This document shows positions 7,646 through 63,526 of a DNA stretch of 64,000 bases, one piece after another. The DNA lies in assembly GCA_951406725.2 (NCBI GenBank), contig OX597831.1:49042001-49106000 (forward strand), given 5' to 3'. The DNA is from Octopus vulgaris. Taxonomy: Eukaryota. Each line of letters starts with the position of its first letter. Positions within the stretch are counted from its first letter, which is position 1. The notes under the pieces were generated by a model. That model was not told the origin of the DNA, did not search any database, and saw only the letters and a program-made list of their open reading frames with translations. Both the position numbers and the translations under genes were made by a program.

Positions 7646-9794
7646 CGGGGAGTTGTGACGCTGATCCAGAAAGACCCGAGCAAATAGTATAATATTGGTA
7701 ATTATAGGCCCATAACTCTACTTAATGTAGAGTTAAAGATTTTGGCCAAGGTGTTAGCAGAAAGGTTGAAGGTCGTCGTCAAGAAACTTGTTGGGAAGGC
7801 ACAGACATGTACAATCCCAGGCAGATCGATCGAAGATACTCTTTACCTTCTCCATTACACTATAGACAGGGTTGGGAAATTAGCCGGCAAAGGAGGGGCA
7901 TTGTTCCATTTAGACCAAAGTAAAGCATTCGATAGGGTAGATCATCAGTACTTGGCAGCGGTTCTCGAGGCGGCTGGGCTAGGCCCTGGCTTTCGCGGGT
8001 GGATCTCACCTATGTACAGTGGCATAAAGTCCACAGTCCAGATAAATGGTTACCTAACGGAGCCATTTTCGATTAAGCATTCAGTTCGTCAAGGATGTCC
8101 CTTGTCCCCTCTCCTGTTCGTTTTGGCTCTTGAGCCATTGCTGCGGAAGTTGGAGACGTTGGGATGCAATCCTAATGAAATCAGATGCGGTAAGTCTGTT
8201 TCTGCTTATGAGGATGACATCACCTTCATCGTGTCCAACGAAGCACAGCTAACTCGTGTAGAAGGTGCTCTCCGAAGATACGAAGCGGTGGCAGGGGCAG
8301 AAGTTAAGGACAAGTCCACTGGTTTGCGCCTCGGCACCTGGAGGAACAAGCCAATATCGTCCAGTGTTGTTGGACACTGGACAGATGGTCCTTTTAAATT
8401 GCTTGGAGTTTGGTTTGGTTCACACTCCCAGACGGAGAAAAATTGGAGCAAGGTAGTGAACAAGGTAGAAGCATTAGTACGGAAGTGGTCTGGAAGGCAT
8501 CTTTCCTTGAAAGGCAGGGTGGAGGTATTACAGGTGTTTATAGCATCTGTCATCACCTATTGCCTGACCGTCGTGCCTTGCCCCGATTTGTAGGTAAGCA
8601 AGTTGGAACGACTCCTTTTCCGCTCTTTGTGGAAGGGAGGAAAGCCACTTGTAAGGCGCTCCATGTGTTGCCAGGAACCACTAAAGGGTGGGCTGGGGAT
8701 GCCTTCGTTAATGATGTGCAGGCATGCACTGAGACTGAGACATCTCTGGTTTCACCTGGAGGGTGATAAGGTGTGGAGTCCGCTGGCAGAGGAATTCTTC
8801 CCGCGACCGCACTCTCCTGAGAGATTTAAGCCCGGTTTCATTAAAAGACAGAATCTGACTTTATGGCAGAAGGAGTGCCGACAGGCACTCTGGCTGATAC
8901 ACAAGATGGACAAAGACGGCAGCGGGAATACCACCTCGACGTTTTATAGAAGGATGGTAGAGGCAAAAAATGACGACATCATAGGAGGGGTTCTGGGGTT
9001 TGATGAGGATCAACTATCCAACCTGTTTAAGAAGACTTTCAGGCTGGGGTATTTGGACAATTACCAAAAATCCCTGACTTGGCAGTGCTATAGGAATGCT
9101 CTACCTGTTCGCGATAAGTTATTTAGGCACGGAATGTCAGTGCCACCGACATGTCCAAGATGTGGGTTGGACGATGAAACCGTTCAGCATGCTTTTATAC
9201 ATTGCCAGGAGCTGTCAAGCTTAATAAGTTACGTAGAACACGTGTTGTCGCATCTGGGACGAATACAGCTATTGGCTGGTTCTATAACAAAGATGATACC
9301 GCCAGCTGGACTCTCAAAGGAAGGTGAGGCTTGTTTTCACTGTACGGTGGCAGTACTGAAAGAGTGTGTGTGGAGAACTAGAATGGAAGGTTTGGTGACA
9401 TGGTCCTTTGTCTCTGGCTATGGTCTGTTAAAATACTTCAGATTATCATCTGAAGAGTAAGATGGATTTGGAGAAGAGGAACCTGACACAGAAAAAGTAT
9501 GTGATTCGATGGAAGGATGTGATGAAAAAGTTGGGTGTGAGTAACCCTGCTTAGTCATCATGAAAGGAGAAAATAGTCTCTGGGCTTTTAGGCTGCCGGG
9601 TAACAATCTATACTGTGGTATACTTATCCGGCCAATTTTATTTTTAAAAAAACAGGAGAAATGTGAAGTCTAGTATTATAATTATTACTCAACATCTGTA
9701 AATACCAAACGAACTACATAACTTTTTTGTAATTGTATTTTGTACTGTAATATCCTACCTTTGCAACGATTTTTATAATCATAATAAAGATTTT
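7646..9794 (+). mobile_element. 5'-truncated Tx1/L1-type non-LTR retrotransposon (RT, C-terminal zinc finger, 3' UTR)
   Basis: NYRPITLLN, LDQSKAFDRV, QGCPLSPLLF, YEDD (degenerate YADD), GGLG, CPRC..ETVQHAFIHC; in-frame stops near 7686 and 8591; AATAAA at 9783-9788. Confidence 0.9.
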
Positions 9795-9957
9795 ATACTT
9801 ACCTGGCACAGGGTTACACCATGATCAGCAAGGTGGTTCTCCCAGAGTGAGGCCCTTCCATTGCACTCCGGTTGGGTTGACCTTTGCGATCGCCCCAAAT
9901 GTGGGCGACTCGGGTGCGCTATTTCTAAGTGTGGGGTCTGCGTTCGCGCTCATCCCG
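9795..9957 (+). ncRNA. U1: U1 snRNA gene, copy 1 (divergent subtype; LINE directly upstream, probably promoterless)
   Basis: ATACTTACCTG 5' end, loop I GATCAGCAAG, loop II ATTGCACTCC, stem III, terminal GCGTTCGCGC hairpin; 163 nt; genomic-type 3' flank with no poly(A). Confidence 0.93.
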
Positions 9958-13618: not shown

Positions 13619-14007
13619 CTGGCAGTATCGCCCGGCGTTGCTCGGGTTTGTAAGGGAAATAACTATATAACCATTTTTAGAGAGTTATATAAAAAAAAAT
13701 GCATTGAAAATGGGAAAAAAAAATGATGGTAAATTTTTTTTTAAATCGTTGACTCATCGTAGACATTTTTAGAGAGTTACTTCCCTTATATAATAGCGAA
13801 AAAATGCATTAAAATGGAAAAAATCGATGGTAAATATTTTTAAAATCATAGACTCATCGTGGACGCGCGCTAATACCCAGAAGGGCTCGATATCAATCAC
13901 GACTATAAGATACCCGGTTTTGGTTAAACTGCACCGCAAAATGTGGGAGCAGTTAGGAATCTAAATCGTAGGAGACAGACACACAACTTCACTTTTATTT
14001 ATAAAGA
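13619..14007 (-). mobile_element. Non-autonomous Helitron
   Basis: Minus strand starts TCTTT.., ends with hairpin CCCGAGCAACGCCGGG followed by CCAG (CTAG in the other copies); A^T target. Confidence 0.75.
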
Positions 14008-20134: not shown

Positions 20135-20297
20135 ATACTTACCTGGCACAGGAGTAAACCATGATCATCTAGGTGGTTCTCCCAGAGTGAGGCCTTTCCA
20201 TTGCACTCCGGTTGGGTTGACCTTTGCGATCGCCCCAAATGTGGGCGACTCGGGTGCGCTATTTCTAAGTGTGGGGTCTGCGTTCGCGCTCACCCCG
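20135..20297 (+). ncRNA. U1: U1 snRNA gene, copy 4
   Basis: Full U1; two stem II substitutions compatible with G-U pairing. Confidence 0.96.
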
Positions 20298-20506
20298 TCA
20301 TATAATTAAAAACAGACATAATTAAGAAGAATTTTCCCGTAAATCAAATAAAGAATAGCGGCTCTCCGTCTACAGCTCTCGGTACACAAACATTTTTTTT
20401 TTGTTAAATCCATTTGCACTTATTTTCCTACAGCCTTTCAACGGTCGTTGGCGCCCCTATCCCCTTATCATATATATATATTTTCATGTTTATAATACAT
20501 AAGCGT

Positions 20507-20742
20507 ATAAAACTTAGATATGTTTCGACCAAAGATTGGTCCAGGTCATATCTAAATTACTAGCATCACCTGATAGGATTATCTTAATCCTGTTCAAGTC
20601 AAGTTTTGTTTATGGTCCATTCAAGCAGTGAGTTTTTATTGGGTGAGTTGTTGGGTGGATTATCTGGTATTCCTTGAAGGAATCTATCCAGACTCTGTTT
20701 AAAGTTGATGGGATCCTTTTACTCTTTGATCTCTTACGGTAC
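20507..20742 (-). mobile_element. 3' end of a CR1/L2-group LINE (ORF2 C-terminus and 3' UTR hairpin)
   Basis: Minus frame VP*EIKE*KDPINFKQSLDRFLQGIPDNPPNNSPNKNSLLEW; GACCAATCTTTGGTC hairpin then GAAAC..CTAAGT near the end. Confidence 0.65.
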
Positions 20743-22343
20743 TCCTCTTTGATCTCTTTCGGCATCCTCCTTTGATCTCTTTCGGCACAATCTTTGATCT
20801 CTGTCGGTACCCTCTTTGATCTCTTTCGGCACCCTCTTTGAAATCTTTCGGGACTCTCTTCGATCTCTTCCGGCACCCTCTTTGATCTCTTTCGGCACCC
20901 TCTTTGATCATTTTCGGCACCCTCTTTAATCTCTGTCGGCACCCTCTTTGAGCTCCGTCGGCACGCTCTTTGTTCTCTTTCGGCACCCTCTTTGATCTCT
21001 TTCGTGACCCTCTTTGATCTCTTTCGGTACCCTCTTTGATCTCTTTCGGTACTCTTTGATCTCTGTCGGCACCCTCTTTGATCTCTTTCGGCACCCTCTT
21101 TGATCTCTTTCGGCACTCTCTTTGATCTCTTTCGGGACTCCTCTTTGATCTCTTTCGGCACCATCTTTGATCTTTTTCGGGACCCTCTTTGATCTCTTTC
21201 GGTACCCTCTTTGATCTCCTTCGGCACCCTCTTTGATCTCTTTCGGCACCCTCTTTGATCTCTTTCGGTACCTTCTTTGATCTCTTTCGGGACTTCTCTT
21301 TGATCTCTTTCGGGAACCCTCTTTGATCTCTTTCGAGACCCTCTTTGGTGTCTATCGGCACCATCTTTGATCTCTTTCGGCACTCTCTTTGATATCTTTC
21401 GGGACTCTTCTTTGATCTCTTTCGGCACCATCTTTGATCTTTTTCGGGACCCTCTTTGATCTCTTTCGGTATCCTCTTTGATCTCCTTCGGCACCCTCTT
21501 TGATCTCTTTCGGCACCCTCTTTGATCCCTTTCGGTACCTTCTTTGATCTCTTTCGGGACTTCTCTTTGATCTCTTTCGGGAACCCTCTTTGATCTCTTT
21601 CGAGACCCTCTTTGGTGTCTGTCGGCACCCTCTTTGATCTGTTTCGGGACTCGTCGTTGATCTCTTTCTGCACCCTCTTTGATCTCTTTCGGCACCATCT
21701 TTGATCTCTTTTGGCACTCTCTTTGATCTCTTTCGGCACCCTCTTTGATCTCTTTCGGCACCCTCTTTGATCTCTTTCGGGACCCTCTTTGATCTCTTTC
21801 GGGACCCTCTTTGATCTCTGTCGGCACCTTCTTTGATCTATGTCGGCACCATCTTTGATCTCTTTCGGCACTCTCTTTGATCTCTTTCGGGACTCTTCTT
21901 TGATCTCTTTCGGTACTCTCTTTGATCTCTTTCGGGACTCTTCTTTGATCTCTTTTTGGACTCCTCTTTGATCTCTGTCGGCACCCTCTTTGATCTCTTT
22001 CGGGACTCGTCGTTGATCTCTTTCTGCACCCTCTTTGATCTCTTTCGGGACCCTCTTTGATCTCTTTCGGCACCCTATTTGATCTCCTTCGGTCGGCATC
22101 CTCTTTGATCTCTTTCGGCACCTTCTTTGATCTTTTTCGGGACTCCTCTTTGATCTCTTTCGGGTCTCCTCTTTGATCTCTTTCGGCACCCTCTTTGATC
22201 TCTGTCGGCACCGTCTTTGATCTCTTTCGGCACACTTTTTGATCTCTTTTGGGACTCCTTTTTGATCTCCTTCGGGACCCTCTTTGATCTCTGTCGGCAC
22301 CCTCTTTGATCTCTTTTGGGACTCTTCTTTGATCTCTTTCGGC
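20721..22343. repeat. ~22-bp minisatellite, roughly 70-75 units (core TCTTTGATCTCTTTCGG plus variable 4-6 nt linker)
   Basis: Directly visible tandem repeat; includes a ~267-bp (about 12-unit) internal duplication (21314 vs 21581). Confidence 0.95.
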
Positions 22344-22916
22344 GGATTTCATACATTTCGTTGTCTAGCCTATCACACGCCTGCATGACGCTGGGTTTTC
22401 CGCTGCCCTGCTGCTGCATAAACTTTCGGATAGTGCTCCATGCTCTCTGGGCATCTGCAAACGAAGCGTATTTCTCTTCCACAATTACCTCGTCGTCTTC
22501 ACTTTCCACCATAACTTTCGTTATGCATTACCTCCTTTGCTATTTCTTCTAGAGTGAAACATGTCGGAAAATACAAGGGGCGGTAACTTGTATCAGATAT
22601 TACTAATGATACGAGGGGCCCGACAATAACGTTTTTCGCAGCATCGATAATCTCCTTCTTTTCCTTCAGCGTAAACTCAGTCCGCTTGCGTTTCTGAGCT
22701 GACATTGTGTGCTACTTTCTGCACTTTTCCACAAGATTACAAATACGAAATGTACAAAATGTCGGAGTACAAAATTTTGAAAAGTTGCGTGCGCTTCAGT
22801 TTACAAGTGGCATAGTAGCGAGATTGGCATAGTAAAAAATTTTTTGTTTATTATTTTGCCGGGACCGCGCAAAACTGGCATAGTCGCGAGAGTGGCATAG
22901 TAGCGAGAGTTGACTG
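22344..22916 (-). mobile_element. Internally deleted pogo/Tigger-like DNA transposon, one TIR retained
   Basis: TA-CAGTCAACTCTCGCTACTATGCC TIR with subterminal repeats; MSAQKRKRTEFTLKEKKEII (CENP-B-type HTH start); acidic C-terminal piece ESEDDE..AQRAWSTIRKFM. Confidence 0.8.
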
Positions 22917-23182
22917 TATATATATTTTTTCAACCATAACTTTTAGCAATTTTGATGTATTTTGTTCAAACTTGATGCCAGCATTACTTAGGACTCATGG
23001 GATCTTCGGAAAAAAATATCGATAAACCGATTCCTTATGGGATTTCCTAATCAAATTGTCTGAAACCCATTTTCAGCCAAACGTTTACGAATTTCAACGG
23101 ATTTCGCTCAAATTTGACGTCAGTGTTACTTAGTTTGGCTTGAAACAAAGCGCTTGATAAGCTTAATGATCCTAACTTAATC

Positions 23183-23209
23183 TCCGGCAACGCCGGGCTA
23201 TACTGCTAG
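23183..23209 (+). mobile_element. Helitron 3' terminus on + strand (also at 44662-44689)
   Basis: CCGGCAACGCCGGG hairpin, spacer, CTAG followed by T. Confidence 0.7.
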
Positions 23210-24999: not shown

Positions 25000-25436
25000 T
25001 CAAATAATCGAAAAATAGACAGTCCGACAGAAGTTGGAATTGCGCCATTTGACAGGGATTTTCCCGGTTCTTCCTTTTTTTCATTTGTCTTTCAAATTCT
25101 GAAAGACATTTTGGCTGGGTTTTGTCAACTTATTTTCTCCAAACCACCCACGGATAGTGGTGAAAATCGATTTTCAGTCATAACTTTTACCAATTTCCAT
25201 GTGAGTTAAGGCGAGAAACAAAAGCAAAGCGTAGATTTTTAGGTGAACACCCACTCGATTTTCACCAAGAAACAACTCGTACTTTTTGCGTGGAATCAAG
25301 TACCCTGACCTCCTAATATGCTACAGATCACTTATTTTAGTTCGGTATGGAAGTGGGGTGAGGGGACCCCCCGCCCCCGGAATTATTAGGAATTTTTTCT
25401 TTTCGTTGAATGAATTTCTGTGACCTGCTAATATGC

Positions 25437-27175
25437 AACCCTCACACAAACCAGTTCACTGACGACCCCCAAGGAATGCGCAGAACTCATTGCCGAGTGC
25501 TATGCAAACATATTCACCGTTGAAAGTCAAAATGTACCATCTTCACCATCTCTAACAGCAAATTCCATAACAACTATGGAATTTACACCTGCAATGCTGC
25601 GACGTCACCTTCAAAATAAGCACGACTATGTCTCCCCTGGTCTCGATGGAGTTACATACCTGCTTCTCAAACGTGGCAGGTACTTCCTTTTACACCAGCT
25701 TTCTATTTTCTTCCAGTACTGTCTCAACAATGGTGCTACTCCGGAGCAGTGAAAAACTGCCAGTGTCATTCCTCTGTTCCAAAAGGGCGACCGCTCATCA
25801 CCTGTCAACTATCGCCCAGTCAGTCTCACTAGCAGTATTGCAAAACTGATGGAATCGTGTGTCAGAGAAACACTTTGGAACTTCTGGAGCTCTCACAGTC
25901 TCATCCGACCCTCACAATATGGATTTGTCCCTAACTCCAGCTGCAGTGATCTGCTTGTCGAGTTCCTTGAGGACATTACTCAGATCACTGACAGTGGCTC
26001 ATGACTGGATGTTTTCTACCTTGACTTTGCTAAGGCTTTCAACTCTGTGCCACACAAAAGGCCTATGGTGAAACTCTCTGCAATGGGTGTGAGGGATGAC
26101 CTTTCTAACTGGTTGAAATCCTTCATTCTCAGCCGAAAGGAGGTAGTCACAGTTCTAGGACAGCATTCTACACCATATGAGATGTCATCGGGTGTACCAC
26201 AGGGATCTGTCCTTGGTCCCCTCTTGTTTGTGGTATACATTAATGACATAGATGCCAATTTAAAGAATGCCACAGTATTGAAATATGCAGACGACATCAA
26301 GCTGTACCTTGAAATCAAGAGGACAGATCCTGTTGTCTACAGCTCTTTCCTGCAATCAGACCTGGACACAATGCAGCAATGGATCACAGACTGGCAACTG
26401 AAACTGGCTGTGGACAAGTGTACCACCATGCATTTTGGGAGAAAAAACCCTGCGTCCACATACTCCCTCCACAACACTGATATCAAGAAATCCTCTTGCG
26501 AGCGTCAGCAGTGATTTGCATCTCTGTCAGCAGTGATTTGCGTTGGACAAAGCATATCTCTAAAATTGTCAAGAAGGCCGAGGGTGTCTTGGCATCACTC
26601 AGCAAGACTTTTGTTAGCCGCTCTCCAGCCATCTATTTAAAACTGTATACAGCTATGGTACGACCACACTTGGAATTCGCATCATCAGTTTGGGACCCCT
26701 ATCTTGCTCAGAACATTGACCTCCTGGAATCTGTCCAGAGACGTGCAACCAAACGCATACCCTCCATCAGACACCTACCATATTCTGAGCGCCTTGTTTC
26801 CCTGGGCATGGATTCACTGAAGCTCCGGCGTCTGGCGACGGACTTGGTAAACACCCACAAAGTTATCAACCACCTCACCAACAACAACACTGAACACCTT
26901 TTTGATCTCCATGTGTCTAACACACGTGGACATGCCTACAAAGTCAGAAAACAACACAGCTCCCATGACTTTCGGAAACAGTTTTTCACGCTCAGAGTTG
27001 CTGAAGCATGGAATAAACTGCCTGCGTCAGTTGTTGACTGCCATGACACTGCATCCTTTAAGGCCCTCATGCTTTCCGAAATCCGCCGTAACTACACCTG
27101 ATTATATATAAACTTTAGATGAGTCGTAGTTCACCTGAGCACTGTACACAATGTTTTATTATTATTATTGTTATT
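25437..27175 (+). mobile_element. 5'-truncated CR1-type LINE, copy A
   Basis: NYRPVSLTS, QGSVLGPLLF, YADD, VRPHLE, LESVQRRATKRI, WNKLP; (ATT)n tail; premature TGA codons. Confidence 0.92.
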
Positions 27176-32931: not shown

Positions 32932-33371
32932 TCATATAATCGAAAAATAGACAGTCCGACTACAGAAATTGGAATTTCACCTTTTGACAGGAATTTTCCC
33001 GGCTCTTCCTTTTTTTCGTTTGTCTTTCAAATTACGAAAGACATTTTGGCTGGGTTTTGTCAACTTATTTTCTCCAAGACACCCGCGGATAGTGGTAAAA
33101 ATCGATTTTCAGTCATAACTTTTACCAATTTCCACGTGAGTTAAGGCGAGAAACAAAAACAAAGAGTAAATTTTTAGATTAACACCCGCTCGATTTTCAC
33201 CAAGAAACAACTCGGACTTTTTGCGTGGAATCAAGTACCCTGACCTCCTAATATGCTACAGATCACTTATTTTAGTTCGGTATGGAAGTGGGGTGAGGGG
33301 ACCCCCCGCCCCCGGAATTATTAGGAATTTTTTCTTTTCGTTGAATGAATTTCTGTGACCTGCTAATATGC

Positions 33372-35110
33372 AACCCTCACACAAACCAGATCACTGACGA
33401 CCCCCAAGGAATGCGCAGAACTCATTGCCGAGTGCTATGCAAACATATTCACCGTTGAAAGTCAAAATGTACCATCTTCACCATCTCTAACAGCAAATTC
33501 CATAACAACTATGGAATTTACACCTGCAATGCTGCGACGTCACCTTCAAAATAAGCACGACTATGTCTCCCCTGGTCTCGATGGAGTTACATACCTGCTT
33601 CTCAAACGTGGCAGGTACTTCCTTTTACACCAGCTTTCTATTTTCTTCCAGTACTGTCTCAACAATGGTGCTACTCCGGAGCAGTGAAAAACTGCCAGTG
33701 TCATTCCTCTGTTCCAAAAGGGCGACCGCTCATCACCTGTCAACTATCGCCCAGTCAGTCTCACTAGCAGTATTGCAAAACTGATGGAATCGTGTGTCAG
33801 AGAAACACTTTGGAACTTCTGGAGCTCTCACAGTCGCATCCGACCCTTACAATATGGATTTGTCCCTAACTCCAGCTGCAGTGATCTGCTTGTCGAGTTC
33901 CTTGAGGACATTACTCAGATCACTGACAGTGGCTCATGACTGGATGTTTTCTACCTTGACTTTGCTAAGGCTTTCAACTCTTTCCCACACAAAAGGCCTA
34001 TGGTGAAACTCTCTGCAATGGGTGTGAGGGATGACCTTTCTAACTGGTTGAAATCCTTCATTCTCAGCCGAAAGGAGGTAGTCACAGTTCTAGGACAGCA
34101 TTCTACACCATATGAGATGTCATCGGGTGTACCACAGGGATCTGTCCTTGGTCCCCTCTTGTTTGTGGTATACATTAATGACATAGATGCCAATTTAAAG
34201 AATGCCACAGTATTGAAATATGCAGACGACATCAAGCTGTACCTTGAAATCAAGAGGACAGATCCTGTTGTCTACAGCTCTTTCCTGCAATCAGACCTGG
34301 ACACAATGCAGCAATGGATCACAGACTGGCAACTGAAACTGGCTGTGGACAAGTGTACCACCATGCATTTTGGGAGAAAAAACCCTGCGTCCACATACTC
34401 CCTCCACAACACTGATATCAAGAAATCCTCTTGCGAGCGTCAGCAGTGATTTGCATCTCTGTCAGCAGTGATTTGCGTTGGACAAAGCATATCTCTAAAA
34501 TTGTCAAGAAGGCCGAGGGTGTCTTGGCATCACTCAGCAAGACTTTTGTTAGCCGCTCTCCAGCCATCTATTTAAAACTGTATACAGCTATGGTACGACC
34601 ACACTTGGAATTCGCATCATCAGTTTGGGACCCCTATCTTGCTCAGAACATTGACCTCCTGGAATCTGTCCAGAGACGTGCAACCAAACGCATACCCTCC
34701 ATCAGACACCTACCATATTCTGAGCGCCTTGTTTCCCTGGGCATGGATTCACTGAAGCTCCGGCGTCTGGCGACGGACTTGGTAAACACCCACAAAGTTA
34801 TCAACCACCTCACCAACAACAACACTGAACACCTTTTTGATCTCCATGTGTCTAACACACGTGGACATGCCTACAAAGTCAGAAAACAACACAGCTCCCA
34901 TGACTTTCGGAAACAGTTTTTCACGCTCAGAGTTGCTGAAGCATGGAATAAACTGCCTGCGTCAGTTGTTGACTGCCATGACACTGCATCCTTTAAGGCC
35001 CTCATGCTTTCCGAAATCCGCCGTAACTACACCTGATTATATATAAACTTTAGATGAGTCGTAGTTCACCTGAGCACTGTACACAATGTTTTATTATTAT
35101 TATTGTTATT
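33372..35110 (+). mobile_element. 5'-truncated CR1-type LINE, copy B
   Basis: Near-identical to copy A, same junctions. Confidence 0.92.
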
Positions 35111-41699: not shown

Positions 41700-42143
41700 T
41701 CATATAATCGAAAAATAGACAGTCCGACTACAGAAATTGGAATTTCACCTTTTGACAGGAATTTTCCCGGCTCTTCCTTTTTTTCGTTTGTCTTTCAAAT
41801 TACGAAAGACATTTTGGCTGGGTTTTGTCAACTTATTTTCTCCAAGACACCCGCGGATAGTGGTAAAAATCGATTTTCAGTCATAACTTTTACCAATTTC
41901 CACGTGAGTTAAGGCGAGAAACAAAAACAAAGAGTAAATTTTTTAGATTAACACCCGCTCGATTTTCACCAAGAAACAACTCGGACTTTTTGCGTGGAAT
42001 CAAGTACCCTGACCTCCTAATATGCTGCAGACCACTTAATTTAGTTCGGTATGGAAGTGGGGTGAGCCCCCCCCCTCCCCAAACCTGGAGTCATAAGAAT
42101 TTTTTCTTTTCGTTGAATGAATTTCTGTGACCTGCTAATATGC

Positions 42144-43865
42144 AACCAGATCACTGACGACCCCCAGGGAATGCGCAGAACTCATTGCCGAGTGCTATGC
42201 AAACATATTCACTGTTGAAAGTCAAAATGTACCATCTTCACCATCTCTAACAGCAAATTCCACAACAACTATGGAATTTACACCTGCAATGCTGCGACGT
42301 CACCTTCAAAATAAGCGCAGCTATGCCTCCCCTGGTCTCGATGGAGTTACATACCTGCTTCTCAAACGTGGCAGGTACTTCCTTTTACACCAGCTTTCTA
42401 TTTTCTTCCAGTACTGTCTCAACAATGGTGCTACTCCGGAGCAGTGAAAAACTGCCAGTGTCATTCCTCTGTTCAAAAAGGGCGACCGCACATCACCTGT
42501 CAACTATCGCCCAGTCAATCTCACTAGCAGTATTGCAAAACTGATGGAATCGTGTGTCAGAGAAACACTTTGGAACTTCTGGAGCTCTCACAGTCTCATC
42601 CGACCCTCACAATATGGATTTGTCCCTAACTCCAGCTGCAGTGATCTGCTTGTCGAGTTCCTTGAGGACATTACTCAGATCACTGACAGTGGCTCATGAC
42701 TGGATGTTTTCTACCTTGACTTTGCTAAGGCTTTCAACTCTGTGCCACACAAAAGGCCTATGGTGAAACTCTCTGCAATGGGTGTGAGGGATGACCTTTC
42801 TAACTGGTTGAAATCCTTCATTCTCAGCCGAAAGGAGGTAGTCACAGTTCTAGGACAGCATTCTACACCATATGAGATGTCATCGGGTGTACCACAGGGA
42901 TCTGTCCTTGGTCCCCTCTTGTTTGTGGTATACATTAATGACATAGATGCCAATTTAAAGAATGCCACAGTATTGAAATATGCAGACGACATCAAGCTGT
43001 ACCTTGAAATCAAGAGGACAGATCCTGTTGTCTACAGCTCTTTCCTGCAATCAGACCTGGACAAAATGCAGCAATGGATCACAGACTAGCAACTGAAACT
43101 GGCTGTGGACAAGTGTACCACCATGCATTTTGGGAGAAAAAACCCTGCGTCCACATACTCCCTCCACAACACTGATATCAAGAAATCCTCTTGCGAGCGT
43201 GACCTAGGCATCTCTGTCAGCAGTGAGTTGCGTTGGACAAAGCATATCTCTAAAATTGTCAAGAAGGCCGAGGGTGTCTTGGCATCACTCAGCAATACTT
43301 TTGTTAGCCGCTCTCCAGCCATCTATTTAAAACTGTATACAGCTATGGTACGACCACACTTGGAATTCGCATCATCAATTTGGAACCCCTATCTTGCTCA
43401 GAACATTGACCTCCTGGAATCTGTCCAGAGACGTGCAACCAAACGCATACCCTCCATCAGACACCTACCATATTCTGAGCGCCTTGTTTCCCTGGGCATG
43501 GATTCACTGAAGCTCCGGCGTCTGGCGACGGACTTGGTAAACACCCACAAAGTTATCAACCACCTCACCAACAACAACACTGAACACCTTTTTGATCTCC
43601 ATGTGTCTAACACACGTGGACATGCCTACAAAGTCAGAAAACAACACAGCTCCCATGACTTTCGGAAACATTTTTTAACGCTCAGAGTTGCTGAAGCATG
43701 GAATAAACTGCCTGCGTCAGTTGTTGACTGCCATGACACTGCATCCTTTAAGGCCCTCATGCTTTCCGAAATCCGCCGTAACTACACCTGATTATATATA
43801 CACTTTAGATGAGTTGTAGTGCACCTGAGCACTGTACACAATGTTTTATTATTACTATTATTATT
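42144..43865 (+). mobile_element. 5'-truncated CR1-type LINE, copy C
   Basis: Same insertion site and shared stops; lacks the frameshift of copies A and B. Confidence 0.92.
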
Positions 43866-46446: not shown

Positions 46447-47278
46447 CATACATTCTTTAGTGAGAAAGAAACAACGAGGGTTGTCATAGGATGTGCTAGA
46501 AACAACAGCCAAATCACCCTTAAATCACACACACACTTTTTCTTCTGAGAATATTTACAATTTTTTTTTTCTACTGGAAAGTCCGATCGGGATCTTTTCT
46601 TTTTGAAGGCGATCCCAGATTTTTTCTTTTACATAATGTTTTCTTGAATGTATGTCTATATTTCAACGAAACACCGGCATCAAACAACCGGTCGTACATA
46701 CAGTGGACTGTGTTTAGCCCCTTGTGGGTAGTAATGAAATAGGTATCTATACAGATATCGTATACGTGCTTGCGTGCGTGCGTGCGAATGTTTGTGTGTG
46801 TGTGTGTATGCTCTACTTGTTCCCCACCAACGCTTGACAACCGGCCCTGGTTAGTTTTCATCTTTGTAAAAGAAATAGAAATCATTGTGTGTAATTTGGG
46901 GAAGATTTTGCTGTTATATCTAGCATGTCTAACGATCATGTAAGATATTCTTTTGTTGGCTCGTTTTGTGTAGTAAATGTATTACAGTAAATATTTTTAC
47001 TGGTAAACTTTCAAATAAAACTGGAATTGTCTCCCTTGTTTATTTACCGTTACTGTTGGATTAAACAAGGCTATAATTTCTAAATTTTATATTTCAAAAA
47101 ATTAAAGCATTATTTTACTAAACCATTGAATTAGAAATAATGAGTTGTAGCAGTTGAGTTATAATATATATAATGAAATTTGCTGAAAAATTAATATTTC
47201 AAGGTAATATTAGAGGCAATATCAGTGAAGCTACAATGCAAATATCGTTTATATGAGATTTGTGAACACCGATAAAAC

Positions 47279-47441
47279 ATACTTACCTGGCACAGGAGTA
47301 AACCATGATCATCTAGGTGGTTCTCCCAAAGTGAGGCCCTTCCATTGCACTCCGGTTGGGTTGACCTTTGCGATCGCCCCAAATGTGGGCGACTCGGGTG
47401 CGCTATTTCTAAGTGTGGGGTCTGCGTTCGCGCTCACCCCG
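47279..47441 (+). ncRNA. U1: U1 snRNA gene, copy 10
   Basis: Full U1 motif set; 3' flank shared with copy 4. Confidence 0.96.
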
Positions 47442-48696
47442 TCATATAATTAAAAACAGACAAAATTAAGAAGGATTCTCCCGCAAATCAAATAAAGAAT
47501 AGCTGCTCTCGGTCTACAGCTATTGTACACAAACATTGTTTTTTGTTAAATCCATTTGCACTTATTTTCCTACAGCCTTTCAACGGTCGTTGGCGCCCCC
47601 CCCCATCCTCTTATCATATGAGAACCACTGAGTTAACGTACAAAACACTCGCAATAATATTTTGAACTGAGCACTAAAAGTTGCTTGTTGTGTGAATGAT
47701 TTCGTGTTTTCACTTGTGTTACACTGTCTTGTTTCTATAAACTAGTGGAGGGAAACTTTTTCTGTCCACTGACAACCGGGGGGGGGGGGGGCTTTTTTGT
47801 TTACATAACCGTTAATTAGCGGTTTGGGAAAATAGACTTAAAAACGATAGGTACTGGGGTTGATTTATTCAATTAAAATCTTTAAGGCAGTGCCCCAGCA
47901 TGGCTGCAGTCCAATGACTGAAACTAGAAAAACAAAAGATTTTTGTTTTTGGCAATATCGTTCATGAACTGGTGATTGTCAAACACTCACACACCTTCGG
48001 CCACTGCGTGGCACCTTGGGCAAGTGTCTTCTGCTGCCAACCAAAGCCTTACGACTGGATTCAATAAATGGAAACTTAAAGAAGCCCTTCATATATATAT
48101 ACATGCACATATAACGACAGATTTGTACCCCAGCCCCCACTGACTTTGTTGCCTCATACCTACCATCATTTCTTCTCAATATTCAAGCCAGTTATAAACT
48201 AGGCGGAAAGATAAAAAGAATGAGATGAGATTACTTCGATTAAAATTTATCTTCAAAACAAAGCCGGCCTTCATCATCATTGTTTAACGTCCGCTTTCCA
48301 TGCTAGCATGGGTTGGACGGTTCAACTGGGGTCTAGGAAGCCAGGAGGGCTGCATTAGGCCCAGTCTGATCTGGCAGTGTTTCTACAGCTGGATGTCCTT
48401 CCTAATGCCAACCACTCCATGAGTGCAGTAGGTGCCTTTTATGTGGCAGACGAGGCTGGGAACGGCCATGATCGGTTGGTGCTTTTTACATGCCACTGGC
48501 ACGGAGGCCAGTCAGGGCGGCACTGGCAACGGCCACGTTCGGATGGTTCTTATACGTGCCAGCAGCACTGCTATCACAACTACAATTTCCATTGATTTTT
48601 GAGCAATTTCGATTCTGATTTCACTTGCCTCAACAGGTCTTCGCAAGCAGAGTTTTGTGTCCCAAGGAGGAAAGTTATGCATAAGTGGGCTGGCTA

Positions 48697-54669: not shown

Positions 54670-55132
54670 CTGAAGAAGAAAAAATATTCCAAAAAAAAAA
54701 AAAAAAGATAAAGATATAGTTGTATCTTGAGTATAAACACAGAACTACCCAATTAATTTGTTGCTGTTACTGTTAAAAAAAAATCTATTGTAACATCTAC
54801 AGCATTTTCTTACTTATTTCAGTCATTAGACTACAGCTATGCTGGGGCACTGCCTTGATAGGTATGTACAGCATGCAGGTTTCCCAAGCTGTCATCCATT
54901 TAAGAACTAACTAGGCTCAACATTGCTTAACTTCAGTGATTGGATGAGAAATGGTGTTTACAATGTGATATGGCTGTAAGCATGTTGACTTTCTGAAATA
55001 GTCTTCTTACTGAGTAAAAATACTTTGGTTCTCTACTCCAGAGGAATACTGTATTCACAATATCAATTGCTGTATACTTGTACAGATGAAGTGAACACGT
55101 TGACAACCAAGCTAAGAAAGGAGCATCTATAC

Positions 55133-57283: not shown

Positions 57284-57575
57284 CTACAAAACAAAAAGCA
57301 ATACTTTTACTGGACATCACCTTCAAGAGTAGAATAGACTACATTGATCCCAATTATTATTAACTAGCAGTATAGCCTGGCGTTGCTCGGGTTTGTTTTC
57401 TTTTCAACCCTTTAGAATTGGAATTTTTGAAAAGTAAAAATTTTGCATTATGTAGCTTATTATTCTCTTTTAGTGAACATTTTTCTGGTTGAAATACACC
57501 GAAAAATGGCAACACAGCAGTCAAAAAATCGTAAAAAATAGGGATTTTCATAGAAAAAAAGCACCTTTTTGATGT

Positions 57576-57987
57576 TGTAACAGGATGTTATCGATTCACT
57601 GAAAGGGTGTCGATCCGATCCAGTCACATACAATTTTTGTAAGACAATACAGACGAAGTCAGGTTGTAGGTGAAAGACAGCAGTTCATTTATTTATTGCG
57701 ATGGCGTACGTGTGTCTGATGGGAGAAGGACAGCCTCTGGTGTACAGCTTCTTGTTCGTTTGTTGAAGAGGTTCGATGGTCGTTGGCAGCTAAGTCGGTG
57801 AGGTTATCAGAGCCTGCGAAATGTACATCCGATCACGTTGGCTGTCTTGCCAGAGAGGAGGATTTGAGTTTGGCGGGCCTAAGGGAACGTTTCCCACACA
57901 TGTGCATGGGGAAGACTTCCGGTGGCCACCCGGAAGTAGTCCCATTCTGCGCATGCGCGCTGAACCCTACACAGTAGCATCACTACA
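57576..57987 (-). repeat. 3' LTR (412 bp), preceded by PPT AGGGGGAGCCT (57988-57998)
   Basis: Direct repeat of 62469-62882. Confidence 0.95.
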
Positions 57988-58121
57988 AGGCTCCCCCTCG
58001 AGTGCGAAAGTACGACAACAAGAACATTTCTGGTGGTGCTGCAGAAAAACAGATGGCTTGCCGATCCCCCAGAAGACTTGGTACATAATATCATACAAAA
58101 CAAGAAAAATTTGAAAGAAAG

Positions 58122-61100
58122 TTAAATGTAGATTGTCTTTGAAAGTTTCTTGGGCCAATGCACTGTTCTGCCCGATTTTGTAACATACGGTGTGCTCGGG
58201 GCACCCGTTGACAGCGAGGATGGTGTTGTAGAAGCCGGTGAAGGCAAAGGCGTCTGTGCAGGTGAAGGTGTTTGTGCAGGTGAAGGCGTTTGTGCAGGTG
58301 AAGGTGTTGTTAAAGGTGCATAGGTGGGTGTGTCAAGGTTGTCATCAAAAGATGAAGACGTCTCAAAATACGCTTTTTTTAACCGGTCCACGGAAACGGT
58401 CTCCGAATGACCATTTATCTCAATCGTGAAAACCTTTGGTGTGCGAGGAAGCACACGGAAAGGTCCTTTATAGGGAGAAACAAATGGGCCCTTGACAGAG
58501 TCGTCCCGAACAAAAACATGCGACCAAGTGTCCATATCCGGTGGAAGATGGGATGGTGGAGATTGCTTTCTGGGAACCATGGGTGGAAGGTTCGAAAAAT
58601 ATGCACGCAGTCTGGTGACATAGGTCGCCAGATCATGGGGCTGGGAAGTGTCTGGCACCAGCATCGTACAAGACAATGCCAGTGTGGTACCATACAGCAG
58701 CTCTGCAGCAGAAAACCCCAGGTCTGCCTTGACAGCAGTCCGACAGCCGAGAAGCACAATGGGCAGAAATTCAATCCAGGACTGTGGGTCTGAAGAGGCA
58801 CGAAGAGTGGCCTTGAGCTGTCTATGGAACCGCTCAACTAATCCATTAGACGCTGGATGGTAGCTTGTAGTGTGGATATGGTGCATACCTAACATTCGCG
58901 ACAATTCGCGAAATAGCGAGGCCTCAAACTGACGTCCACGATCAGTTGTCAATCGGGACAGGACTCCGAAGCGAGAAATCCAGTTTGAAACGAAAGCTTG
59001 CGCAACAGTCTCAGCAGAAATGTCTGCTATCGGAATGGCTTCTGGCCAGCGGGAGAAGCGATCGACACAAGTTAACAGATAAGAGAACCCGTGACTCACA
59101 GGCCATGGTCCAACCAGATCGATGTGGACATAGCGAAAACGGGCCTCCGTGGGGGGAAATTGTCCAAGCGGAGCACGAACGTGCTGTTGAATTTTGGACC
59201 GTTGACACTTGGAGCAGGTGCGTGTCCAAGAAGTAATAGTGCGACGCATATTCGGCCAGAAAAACCGAGCAGTGATTAGTTTAAGGGTGGCAGCGATGCC
59301 AGGATGTGATAAGGAGTGCAGTGCTTCAAACACTGAGCGTTGATGGTTCTCAAGCACCAGTGGCCTGGGAGAACCAGTGGAAGTATCACAAAGAATGGTG
59401 CCTTCGGCTGACGGAAGCGGAAGGTAGGAAAACTGGCAACAGGAGAACTTGGGAGAAGTTAAGTCTAACGACGCCAAAGGTGGCTGCTCCTGCGAGATAA
59501 CAGCTAAGTCGATAGCAGCAGGAGACGAAAGAGCGCAAACTGGAAGGCGAGAGAGAAGCGTCAGCAGGAACGTTCTCTTTTCCAGGTATGTGTCGAATGT
59601 TGCTAGTGAACTGAGAGATAAAATCCAGGTGCCGGAAAGCACGGGGTGAGAGTTTGTCCGTTTTTGAACACAGGGCAAACGTAAGGGGCTTGTGATCCGT
59701 ATAGATCACAAAATCTCACCCTTCAAGTTGATGCTGGAAATGATGAACCGATAGATAGATCGCTAGGAGCTCACGATCAAAGGTGCTGTATCGTCGTTCA
59801 GCTGGTTGCAGTTGACGGGAAAAGAAAGCTAGAGGTCGAATATGATCATCCACTGTGTGTTGTAACACAGCGCCAATCGCAGTGTCCGATGCGTCTACAG
59901 TCAAAGAGAGGGAAACACCAGGAACTGGATGTGCAAGCAAAGAAACAGAAGCCAGCTCCTTCTTAATGGACTCAAAGGCTGTCACTGCCTCAACAGAGAG
60001 GGTGACTTGACTGTCCTTTCTAGGAGTGTCCTTTAATAGCCTGGTGAGAGGTAGTAGCTTATCTGCACAACCGGGAATAAAACATCTGTAGAAATTGATC
60101 ATCCCTAGATAATGCCTGAGCTGGCGCAAGGAAGTGGGGGGTGCGATGCGTTGAATGGCATCGACTTTTGACGAGAGAGGGCTGATTCCACTCGAATCAA
60201 TATGATGGCCTAGAAAATCTAGGGAAGAGCGTCTGAAAACACACTTGTCGGGATTTATACGTATACTATAAGTGCGAAGACGCTGAAAAAGCTGAGAAAG
60301 GTGCTGGAGATGATTTTCACATGTGTCGCTTGCAATGAGTATATCATTGACATAGGCAAACACAAAATCAAGACCGCGGACAACCTCATCAATGAAACGC
60401 TGGAAGGTGCTAGTAGCATTCCGCAAACCGAAACTCATATACAAAAACTCAAAACACCCAAAGGGGGTAGTGATCGCAGTTTTCGGAACGTCGGCTGGGT
60501 TGACCGGTATTTGATGGTACGCGCGTATAAGGTCGACCTTCGAAAAAATGGTACAACCATGGAAATTTGCCGTAAATTCCTGGAGATTTCAGATCAGATA
60601 TCTGTCGGCTATTGTTACGGCATTGAGGCGTCGATAGTCTCCAACCGGGCGAAAATCAGACTCGCCCTTTCGCGCCAAATGAAGGGGAGATGCCCATGGG
60701 CTGGTGGAGGGGTGTATAAGGCCAAGTTGAAGCATGTGCTCAAACTCGGCCCTGGCCGCTTTTAGTCGGTCTGGCGCAAGGCGCCGTGGGCGCGAAAATA
60801 CAGGCGGCCCAGTGGTGGTGATAAAATGGAGGGTCGAGTGGGTAGGCTTTTCCGGTTTAAAGGCAATGTCCACTAGCTCCGGAAATGAAACCAAAAGAGA
60901 GTGAAAAGGGTCTCCAGAGGTGGCAACAAAGAATGTCGGGCTAAGGACCGCAGTGGTGGAACTCCCAGTCGGTGTAGAGAGCGACGTCGTGCTATCAAGA
61001 AGCCTCCAACGCCTGACATCCACCAATAGATTAAACCTATCCAGGAAATCAGCGCCGAGAATAGGATGTGGGATGTCAGCGATGACGAAAACCCATTGAA

Positions 61101-61359
61101 AATCTCGACGAAGGTTGATGTCGAGGCGCAGCGAAATCTGACCGTAAGTGGTTATGGGAGACGAGTCAATAGCATGCAAGACAATTGAAGAGCGCTTGGG
61201 CTTGTCTGCAGCCAGACGAAGGGGCCAGATGCTGCAACAAGAGCCGGTGTCCACCATGAAGAATTTCTTCGACACCAGATCTTTTACAAAGAATGCACGA
61301 TTTTTGGGAAACGAGATGGAAGAAGGTGACGTGCTCACCTCCTCCGGATTTAGTTTTCC
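58122..61359 (-). pseudogene. Gypsy pol with stops and a frameshift
   Basis: VDTG, ILGADFL, DYRRLN, FGLRNA, YVND, DAS, RELLAI, TDHKPL, HHCC zinc finger, integrase core. Confidence 0.93.
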
Positions 61360-62085
61360 GAGGGCTTGAAAGTACACGGCTGGGCACACCGATCTGCCCT
61401 CTCGGCATACTTTGAATGGTACCAGCACCCGCCGGAACGAGAAACAGAATCACTCCGACTACGGGAAATAGAGCTACTGCGACTACGACTGCGAGATTGG
61501 CGCCCGATCGCACGGCACAGATCATCGATTCTCTGCGTAAGCGCATCGATCTTCTTGGCTAGTTTATCGTTCGTCGGAGGTGGCTCTGTACATGCGTACA
61601 GGCCCCCGTGAGGGAGATGGTCGCGAAAACTCTAACACTTTGTCGGCCATCGTGGCGATCTGGTCCACAGACACAGCTTCCAGTGCCGTGGCCAACATTG
61701 TCTGCACGTGGGCAGGCAGCCTGGAAAAAAATATTTTTCGTAAGAGCGGCGTGTCCGCTGCATTGCTGCTAAGCTCCCTTAGATGGCGCAGGAACTGGGA
61801 TGGAGTTCTGTCCCCCAACTGCTCGTCGGCCATCAGCTCATTGAACTGACTTTCCTCCGACCGCGTGTTGCGGCGGAGGATTTCTGCCTTTACTGACGCA
61901 TATGTGGCGTCAGGGTGGAGACTCATAATGAGATCCCTGACCGATGTGGCGAGCCGGGAGGGCAAACTTGAGTACAGCAGATGTAACTGCTGTTGTGGAG
62001 GAATGGTATGCGCGGCAAAATGGGATTCCACCTGGGCAAGCCACAGCCCTGCATCCCCCGTGAATGAAGGCAAACCTGAAGCCAT
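61350..62085 (-). pseudogene. Gypsy gag (frameshifted near 61600)
   Basis: LWLAQVESHF, LGDRTPSQFLRHL, then in a shifted frame CWYHSKYAERADRCAQPC to TAA. Confidence 0.88.
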
Positions 62086-62456
62086 GCTTTTGTCGGAAGG
62101 AATCTGTCAGAAAGGGGCAGAAGGTATGATCGAGAAATGGAGAGAGAATACGTGGAACCGACAAAGCAAATCAATGGTGTTTTGTGTACTGGTGTGTGTG
62201 TACCTCATGGGTAGTAAAACAAGTGTGTGTGTGTGCGCACAAAGGAAAACAAAGTACAGAAAAGGAAAAAAAATTAATGTGTGTGTGTGTTTTTTTGTTT
62301 TTTTTTCAGTGTACTGAGTGCGATGAATAAGCTTGTTTGTACCCACCTCGCCGTTCTGAAAGGAAAAGAAAAAATGAAAAATGAATGTTCAGTGCTCTAT
62401 CTGGCAAAACCTGTTCGCTGCGTCTTCTGTTCTTTTTTTTTTTTTTTTTTCAACTT

Positions 62457-62466
62457 GGGGTCACCA
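62457..62466 (-). promoter_or_regulatory. Primer binding site TGGTGACCCC, complementary to the tRNA-Trp 3' end
   Basis: 2 nt from the 5' LTR; matches ..GGGGUCACCA. Confidence 0.8.
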
Positions 62467-62468
62467 AT

Positions 62469-62882
62469 TGTAACAGGATCTATTATCGATTCACTGAAAG
62501 GGTGTCGATCCGATCCAGTCACATACAATTTTTGTAAGACAATACAGACGAAGTCAGGTTGTAGGTGAAAGACAGCAGTTCATTTATTTATTGCGATGGC
62601 GTACGTGTGTCTGATGGGAGAAGGACAGCCTCTGGTGTACAGCTTCTTGTTCGTTTGTTGAAGAGGTTCGATGGTCGTTGGCGGCTAAGTCGGTGAGGTT
62701 ATCAGAGCCTGCGAAATGTACGTCTGATCGCGTTGGCTGTCTTGCCAGAGAGGAGGATTTGAGTTTGGCGGGCCTAAGGGAACGTTTCCCGCACATGCGC
62801 ATGGGGAAGACTTCCAGTGGCCACCCGGAAGTAGTCCCATTCTGCGCATGCGCGCTGAACCCTACACAGTAGCATCACTACA
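62469..62882 (-). repeat. 5' LTR (414 bp)
   Basis: Direct repeat of 57576-57987. Confidence 0.95.
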
Positions 62883-63526
62883 ATGTAAATAATTTTTGGT
62901 CTTAACATGGTCCGATTTGAATTTTTTCTTCTATGGAATGAAGAGCAAGCCTTCTTCTATCATACTCTCAATTTTTGTCAACTTGCGCCGCAGGGTCTCG
63001 GAGGAGATAGTGTTAGTTGAAGGCTACCAAACCTGACACACAAAGACAACTTCACCTTTATATATAAAGATTAGTAATTAATAACTTAATTAGTTACAGG
63101 TATGATTGTGTGGTTAAGAAGCTTGCTTTCCAACCATGTGATCTTGGGTTCAGTCCCACTGTGTGGTGTCTTATACCAAAGTCTCGAGCAATTGGATTTG
63201 AGAGATAGAAACTGAAAGAAATCAGTTGTGTGCATGTGTGTCTGTGTTTGTGGGTGTCGGTGTCTCCTTGCCTTGACATTGCATTAAGGTCGTAAGAGGG
63301 TATCAATGTCATGCTAGCATGAAAAAATGGATGTTAAATGATGATCATGGTAATTATCTTACTGACGTCAGAAGGATGAAAGACAAAGCAAACCTGGACA
63401 GTATATGAATTGAGAATTTAAAGAGAAATAACCAAAACAAGATATTTTGTTCCATGCACCACCACCCATGAACTGCATATATCAAAACATTACTTCTTCA
63501 AATAGCAAGCTAGAGTTACATATATA

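What the first reader, a model, noticed from the sequence alone, without database searches (positions are those of the whole stretch)
20507..22400. Minisatellite grown from a LINE's own sequence at its 5' truncation: possible reiterative, telomerase-like reverse transcription
Seen: on minus the array runs directly into a LINE ORF2 C-terminus (VP*EIKE*KDPINFKQSLDRFL..IPD.P), and the repeat core CCGAAAGAGATCAAAGA is the PKEIK(E) segment of that ORF. About 70 units keep a conserved 17-nt core with variable 4-6 nt linkers (GGGTG, GAGTC, TGGTG, GGGTA, GGGTC). The far end joins a broken pogo transposase at ..GAAATCCGCCGAAAG. Inference: the RT repeatedly re-primed on one short template stretch, or repair synthesis looped on that microhomology, bridging two elements. 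The 267-bp internal duplication shows some later DNA-level expansion.
Basis: partly seen in the sequence, partly recalled or inferred. Interest (0 to 1): 0.75.

Follow-up and report, generated by a model that had tools for sequence, protein, structure and literature searches.

The report
LINE-born satellite evolving Wnt-factor sites
This 1.6-kb repeat is one of dozens of scattered copies of a satellite whose unit is a 23-base piece of a jumping gene's coding sequence; it was likely patched in here during break repair, and across the genome the changes that spread spare and improve a predicted docking site for the Wnt regulator TCF, which suggests protein binding helps the repeat multiply.

Summary
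The array is real: 73 cores, a 267-bp internal duplication, in register with a LINE tail, and 8-9 nt shared with a broken pogo-type element. Its founding 23-mer is LINE ORF2 sequence, single in 29 of 29 other copies examined.

It is not a one-off. The satellite occurs at 43 or more loci, and only this one touches a LINE. Only 13 of 72 linkers here could be copied from the LINE by a plain jump, and arrays show no strand polarity. Reiterative reverse transcription here is unlikely; capture of an existing satellite by homology-led repair fits better.

The scan found this TCF-site satellite family before, on other DNA. New here is its LINE ancestor, which roots the changes. The 8-nt TCF site is the least-altered window of the unit (P about 3e-4). 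The three most widespread derived changes build a C-clamp Helper site that the LINE lacks. Binding is untested.

The parts
20135..20298 (+). U1 snRNA gene, one of 10 in this window's cluster; left neighbour of the block
   Evidence: Rfam RF00003, 130.5 bits
20299..20473 (+). U1 downstream flank; the paralogous unit at 47279 continues without the block
   Evidence: 19666-20473 matches 46801-47619 at 92.8%
20474..20508 (.). About 35 nt AT-rich filler between the U1 flank and the LINE 3' end
   Evidence: sequence; the junction is bridged exactly by a contig of run X2 (record 2)
20509..20742 (-). LINE 3' end: last ORF2 codons (stop at 20599-20601) and 3' UTR; 5.9% from the majority of 29 copies plus a 9-bp deletion
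20722..22343 (-). Minisatellite, 73 units of 22/23 bp; 61 TCF-type sites CTTTGWWS in 1,622 bp against 16 in the other 62,378 bp
21097..21640 (-). Internal 267-bp (12-unit) tandem duplication, 6 mismatches in 277 bp
20723..20742 (-). 20-nt overlap shared by array and LINE (GT. plus core)
   Evidence: win_0_3: 27 of 31 paralog alignments end here
22335..22343 (-). 8-9 nt microhomology (G)CCGAAAGA shared by array and pogo-type element
   Evidence: 19 of 19 paralog alignments end here
22335..22916 (-). Non-autonomous pogo-type TIR element, left TIR intact, last ~270 bp and right TIR lost; 2.6% from the majority of 19 copies
22917..23209 (+). Helitron-type piece (3' hairpin plus CTAG|T) into whose TA run the pogo element inserted
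   Evidence: sequence; paralogs at 14007, 30522, 39290, 44385; class from recalled Helitron end anatomy

Best explanation
The array is one of at least 43 dispersed copies of a minisatellite whose founding 23-bp unit is a piece of a LINE ORF2; it was likely copied into this spot from the existing satellite pool by homology-led break repair, and family-wide the variants that spread spare a predicted TCF site and build a predicted Helper site, so TCF binding likely favours some units. Steps: (1) Shown: the LINE 23-mer GTC-core-GGA is the ancestral unit and already holds CTTTGATC on its other strand. (2) Inferred: it was tandemly duplicated once, place unknown, and spread as DNA, inside a Helitron (shown), inside mosaics with other satellites (shown) and as solo patches with short end overlaps. 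(3) Inferred: here a break was repaired using the 20 nt shared with a LINE tail and the 8-9 nt shared with pogo, in one or two steps, losing the LINE's upstream part and pogo's right end. (4) Shown: arrays turn over at the DNA level. (5) Shown: spread is biased toward a better bipartite TCF site; inferred: binding is the cause.
For: Family: 593 dimer matches, control 0; 43 loci, 82 segments, 5,105 units; a LINE tail at 1 segment end, LINE upstream at none (exact patterns give 1 and 0 hits). Direction LINE to satellite: the codons lie in a motif kept in 110 of 120 distant LINE proteins (N 99%, P 97%, FK 94/99%). Not templated here. DNA route: the array sits at one junction in 7 copies of a Helitron; of 30 copies fetched 23 were empty, 4 filled, 3 unclear. 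Both inverted junction types occur, 7 tail-to-tail and 5 head-to-head places. Variant frequencies are array-specific. Bias: over 40 loci, site-breaking changes spread 3 times against 144 singletons; outside the motifs 74 against 149. Base-matched: G 2/48 vs 55/83, A 0/62 vs 17/43. After collapsing related loci into 24 groups, GATCAAAG is the lowest-spread of 22 possible 8-nt windows (P 2.5e-4; base-matched 4.4e-4). The top three of 66 possible substitutions from the LINE state make GCCG, GCCGAC and ACCG; 6 of the top 10 are among 8 gains toward published sites (P 6e-5; consensus from PMC4154663 and PMC4267635 passages). Larger arrays have better Helpers (rho 0.47 and 0.53).
Against: No donor array was found: unit order matched none of 48 other segments, but order is also lost between Helitron-borne sisters, so that test is uninformative. 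A surviving birthplace would also give exactly one LINE-joined locus. One linker three units from the LINE (TTGTG) resembles LINE upstream TTGTC. The tail (5.9%) and cores (4.3%) are older-looking than pogo (2.6%), so array and tail may have been joined first. The TCF idea came from earlier notes and the 'gain' set was defined after seeing the data. The third possible Helper gain never spread, the T before the Helper is protected without explanation, and in this array two Helper-breaking variants recur 4 and 3 times. Dropping the two positions flanking the site weakens the within-pattern control to P 0.019. All search patterns contained the site. Loci share ancestry. No binding data; this animal's TCF gene was not examined.
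Confidence: 0.58

Rival explanations
1. This locus is the family's birthplace: the 23-mer was duplicated inside this LINE copy, the array later took up or exported derived variants by conversion, and a later microhomology deletion fused it to pogo.
For: Only LINE-joined locus of 43; exact register; tail and cores of similar divergence, both above pogo's; TTGTG linker near the junction.
Against: 0 of 69 units are ancestral, against 17 of 68 in Helitron-borne L108 and 21 of 171 in L094. No LINE-like gradient: GTC-ended linkers are 10, 10 and 4 in the three thirds, lowest next to the LINE. At least 2,892 tail candidates offer ready 20-nt landing pads.
Confidence: 0.17
2. The LINE's reverse transcriptase re-primed about 70 times on one RNA stretch during insertion here.
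For: Array lies 5' of a LINE tail with microhomology at the far end; linkers vary more than cores.
Against: 59 of 72 linkers cannot be copied from the LINE; no LINE copy with the G variant; the same dominant unit occurs in 34 other fetched stretches; 42 of 43 loci lack a LINE; no strand polarity; pogo's remainder is not beyond the LINE tail, so there is no target duplication; mid-core positions 5 and 7 also carry spreading variants.
Confidence: 0.05
3. Dispersed LINE-derived minisatellite captured by repair as in the best explanation, but the uneven spread of variants is neutral: founder effects, mutation bias or exchange points in the linker, with the TCF match a coincidence.
For: Any 23-mer may match some factor; loci are related; exceptions listed above; hits were found with patterns holding the site.
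Against: The protected block has the bounds of the published site and survives base matching and collapsing of related loci. 4 of 7 spreading changes inside it are among the 3 of 24 tolerated ones. The two top changes are transversions toward the Helper. Position 7, present in every search pattern, still varies freely.
Confidence: 0.2

Closest known systems
Rsp-like satellite spread in the Drosophila simulans clade (PMC7403614; passages read)
   Same: A dispersed satellite seeds new loci at microhomologies and forms hybrids with another repeat; donors proposed to be circles or other loci.
   Different: Here the unit is 22/23 bp, traces to a LINE coding segment, also rides a Helitron, and mixes with several other satellites.
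TE-derived satellites and minisatellites, incl. LINE ORF2-related PROsat, Pvc20, chicken HinfI/CR1 and DINE Helitron arrays (review PMC9659126; passages read)
   Same: Unit derived from a transposable element; Helitron carriage.
   Different: The ancestral unit is known base by base, so the direction of change can be read; the passages read describe no bias toward a factor site.
Human Satellite 3 as a transcription-factor platform (PMC11526998; abstract and outline only)
   Same: Satellite units spell sites of signalling factors.
   Different: Binding is shown there and untested here; here arrays are kilobase-sized and dispersed, with a rooted path toward the site.
TCF/Pangolin HMG-Helper pairs (PMC4154663, PMC4267635; passages read)
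   Same: CTTTGWWS plus RCCG(CC) within 0-5 bp; AK6 and FF0 bind best, other layouts still help.
   Different: Repeated 73 times; best Helper is 6 of 7. Layout read as AK4-5 with one neighbour and KK0 with the other; orientation inferred from text, figure not seen.
Telomerase and reiterative template jumping by non-LTR RTs (recalled)
   Same: Short repeated unit next to an RT element.
   Different: Units do not match the template and show no strand polarity.

Membership tests
Telomerase-like / reiterative RT product | Units copy one template faithfully apart from the jump point | tested here: not met
   13 of 72 linkers templatable; 0 of 69 exact ancestral units; G variant absent from LINE copies
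Telomerase-like / reiterative RT product | Fixed strand polarity of addition | tested here: not met
   7 tail-to-tail and 5 head-to-head places
Telomerase-like / reiterative RT product | Arrays recur at LINE 5' ends | tested here: not met
   1 of 43 loci; the exact patterns would miss mutated junctions
LINE insertion by target-primed RT at this site | Target-site duplication or contiguous target around the whole insert | tested here: not met
   Left and right flanks match different parts of U1 spacers; pogo remainder absent
TE-derived minisatellite | Unit homologous to a TE segment that is single in the TE | tested here: met
TE-derived minisatellite | TE segment older than the repeat | tested here: met
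   Motif kept in 110 of 120 distant LINE proteins
Dispersed satellite spread by microhomology repair (Rsp-like type) | Many loci with unrelated flanks and short junction overlaps | tested here: met
   overlaps of 20 and 8-9 nt here, only 2 nt in the Helitron; no genome-wide overlap statistic was obtained
Dispersed satellite spread by microhomology repair (Rsp-like type) | Identifiable DNA donor or circular intermediates | tested here: inconclusive
   No shared unit order, but the positive control also failed; circles not testable
Helitron-borne tandem array | This array lies inside an intact Helitron | tested here: not met
   True of 7 sister arrays; here pogo lies between array and Helitron piece
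Transcription-factor platform satellite (HSat3 type) | Units match a factor's consensus | tested here: met
   84% of 67 window units hold the TCF site, 58% RCCG, 51% both
Transcription-factor platform satellite (HSat3 type) | Factor binds the arrays in cells | not testable with these tools
   needs ChIP, CUT&RUN or EMSA
CR1-group LINE (clade of the source element) | RT phylogeny places it in the clade | not tested
   Label recalled from the C-terminal motif; many homologs carry PF00078; the 258-aa piece itself has no Pfam hit

The most novel reading that the evidence does not exclude
A 23-bp scrap of LINE coding DNA that happened to hold a TCF site became a selfish satellite because TCF binds it. 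Variants that raise TCF affinity are amplified and spread preferentially, turning the LINE sequence stepwise into a bipartite Wnt-response element and seeding kilobase Wnt-factor platforms, including this one between two U1 genes.
Probability: 0.35. Interest if true: 0.85.

Novelty: new variant of a known kind. Interest (0 to 1): 0.6.

Why it matters
Whether protein binding steers which satellite variants win is an old question, usually blocked by not knowing the ancestral unit. Here the ancestor survives in many LINE copies, so direction can be read and each step can be assayed as a short oligo. It also shows one route by which a retrotransposon's coding sequence can become dispersed blocks of predicted Wnt-factor sites.

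Tried and rejected
Strand polarity of addition: suggested by three two-armed loci, rejected.

Donor search by unit order: no signal, and the control failed.

Monophyly of the array-bearing Helitron copies: star tree, unresolved (one diagnostic base shared by 3 of 5 filled copies).

Dating the family from the shared L083/L088 flank: simple repeats, dropped.

Genome-wide microhomology statistic: output cut and dominated by satellite-satellite joins, so only single cases were used.

One search was mis-aimed (TA-rich) and uninformative.

Public runs: no RNA holder listed. Contigs of X2 bridge the U1-flank/LINE junction exactly. An exact 95-bp contig of X1 spans the tail-array join, but X1 may be the source sample. 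X3 and X6 showed only the empty continuation and X5 neither form; holes prove nothing. Satellite-like contigs were laid in runs of three organism labels.

Six other mosaic units had no match in the held LINE, pogo or window sequence (small search set).

Literature searches listed no paper on this satellite or on rooted gain of TCF sites. Only listings were seen, the library is partial, and no supplements were read.

Full report
Observation. On the minus strand a pogo-type element runs into 73 repeats of 22-23 bp, which run in register into a LINE 3' end. Linkers are 5-6 nt in 70 of 72 cases. A 12-unit duplication has 6 mismatches in 277 bp. The block lies between two of ten U1 snRNA genes. Its left flank matches the downstream side of the U1 unit at 47279 and its right flank matches spacer sequence upstream of that unit, so the block sits at a rearranged junction, not in a clean target site.

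The unit comes from the LINE. All 29 other LINE tails fetched have one copy of the core, most in the context TTGTC-core-GGAAAAGG. One satellite unit type, GGAGTC plus core, is an exact rotation of that 23-mer (chance about 3e-9). The codons lie in a motif kept across 110 of 120 distant LINE proteins, so the LINE came first.

The array is not unique. An exact dimer pattern has 593 matches, control 0. From four further patterns I fetched 43 loci with 5,105 units; this is a lower bound, since 493 matches and 5 were not listed. Only the window's array has a LINE tail at its end and none has LINE upstream sequence. Other arrays sit inside a non-autonomous Helitron at one junction (7 copies; 23 of 30 fetched copies empty), inside mosaics with degenerate CCCTAA, 9-, 12-, 13- and 26-bp repeats, or alone with short end overlaps such as CCTAAAG at both ends of L109. 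13 of 43 loci lie within 5% of a contig end (P 2e-4, loci not independent).

Against reiterative RT here. The commonest linker, GGGTG, needs a G that no LINE copy showed. Only 13 of 72 linkers could arise by a plain jump on the LINE, and none of 69 units is the exact ancestor, whereas 17 of 68 are in a Helitron-borne array. Units next to the LINE are no more LINE-like. The dominant unit is shared with 34 other fetched stretches. Inverted joins come in both orientations, 7 and 5 places. Variant frequencies differ by array, and unit order is scrambled even between sister copies, as expected of DNA-level turnover.

How it likely got here. The array shares 20 nt with the LINE tail and 8-9 nt with pogo, whose last 270 bp are gone. 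The simplest reading is repair synthesis from a satellite donor, as proposed for Rsp-like in Drosophila (PMC7403614, passages). No donor could be named. A birthplace model also predicts one LINE-joined locus, and the tail (5.9% from the family majority) and cores (4.3%) look older than pogo (2.6%), so a two-step history is open. The comparison copies were best hits (1.3-1.4% mean), so these ages are rough.

Why the core is conserved. Earlier notes of this scan, on other DNA of this genome, pointed out that the unit spells a TCF site plus Helper and that spreading variants avoid the site. I tested this with the LINE as root. Published sites are CTTTGWWS and RCCG / RCCGCC / GCCGCCR (PMC4267635, PMC4154663; passages). 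In 40 loci with at least 20 units, a variant counted as spread at 10% or more and 3 copies or more. Site-breaking changes spread 3 times against 144 singletons; outside the motifs 74 against 149. With related loci merged into 24 groups, the site is exactly the lowest-spread 8-nt window of 22 (P 2.5e-4; base-matched 4.4e-4). The LINE reads CCCGAAA at the Helper position. The three most widespread changes give GCCG (40 of 40 loci), GCCGAC (26) and ACCG (13). Two more move the flanks toward the LEF-1 site CCTTTGATCTT. Six of the top ten changes fall among eight possible gains out of 66 (P 6e-5, gain set defined after seeing the data). Array size rises with Helper quality (rho 0.47 and 0.53).

Limits. 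The third Helper gain did not spread. One protected T is unexplained. In this array all five core variants seen three or more times lie outside the TCF site, but two of them break the Helper. Every search pattern held the site; position 7, also in every pattern, still varied, but removing the two flanking positions leaves only P 0.019. Binding, expression and this animal's TCF gene were not examined.

Comparison. TE-derived satellites, including LINE ORF2-related ones and Helitron-borne arrays, are known (PMC9659126, passages), and so is a satellite bound by signalling factors (PMC11526998, abstract). My searches listed no report of this family or of a rooted path toward a TCF site. The scan's index showed no note linking the unit to a LINE (only short note texts were seen).

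Verdict. Separate odds: dispersed LINE-derived family 0.95; arrival here by repair rather than birth or RT about 0.75; TCF binding as cause of the bias about 0.6. New variant of a known kind; interest 0.6.

Noticed in passing
window 9795-47442: Cluster of 10 U1 snRNA genes, all on +, in unequal 2.8-7.5 kb units with multi-kb duplications at 90-98% identity; no U1 match in the 10 kb on either side of the window.
   Followed up: partly
window 25432-27101, 33367-35036, 42139-43791: Three near-identical truncated LINE copies (RT hit in the first; the third 30% identical to the array's source LINE over 218 aa) duplicated with the U1 units.
   Followed up: partly
window 7688-9460: Another non-LTR RT fragment ending about 330 bp before the U1 gene at 9795; looks Tx1/L1-like by recall.
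   Followed up: no
window 57575-62883: LTR retrotransposon with 416-bp LTRs 97.6% alike and a pol broken by stops or frame changes.
   Followed up: no
window 54863-54981: Lone 5S rRNA-like match, minus strand, 66 bits.
   Followed up: no
L097, L102, L104, L110, L112: Arrays joined to degenerate telomere-type repeats, always with the purine strand on the CCCTAA strand (5 of 5; some share ancestry).
   Followed up: partly
L086, L091/L092: A spreading linker variant GGAATG (170 of the linkers counted) spells a TEAD-type site (recalled) inside the TCF unit.
   Followed up: no
L093:3746-6368; L111:2360-6350: Arrays inserted in short common repeats with two arms meeting tail to tail; L093's flanks are an inverted duplication.
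   Followed up: partly
L090, L098, L103, L105, L106, L108, L188: Non-autonomous Helitron family, about 1-6% from its majority, with the array at one identical junction in a minority of copies and no resolved clade.
   Followed up: partly
G000:C29:9209622-9210453: A 74-bp tandem array made from the sub-terminal part of the same pogo-type element: a second TE-derived tandem repeat.
   Followed up: no
window 20509-20742 and 22335-22916: Both elements flanking the array are 2-4 times further from their family majority than the fetched copies; selection of best hits or error-prone repair could explain it.
   Followed up: partly
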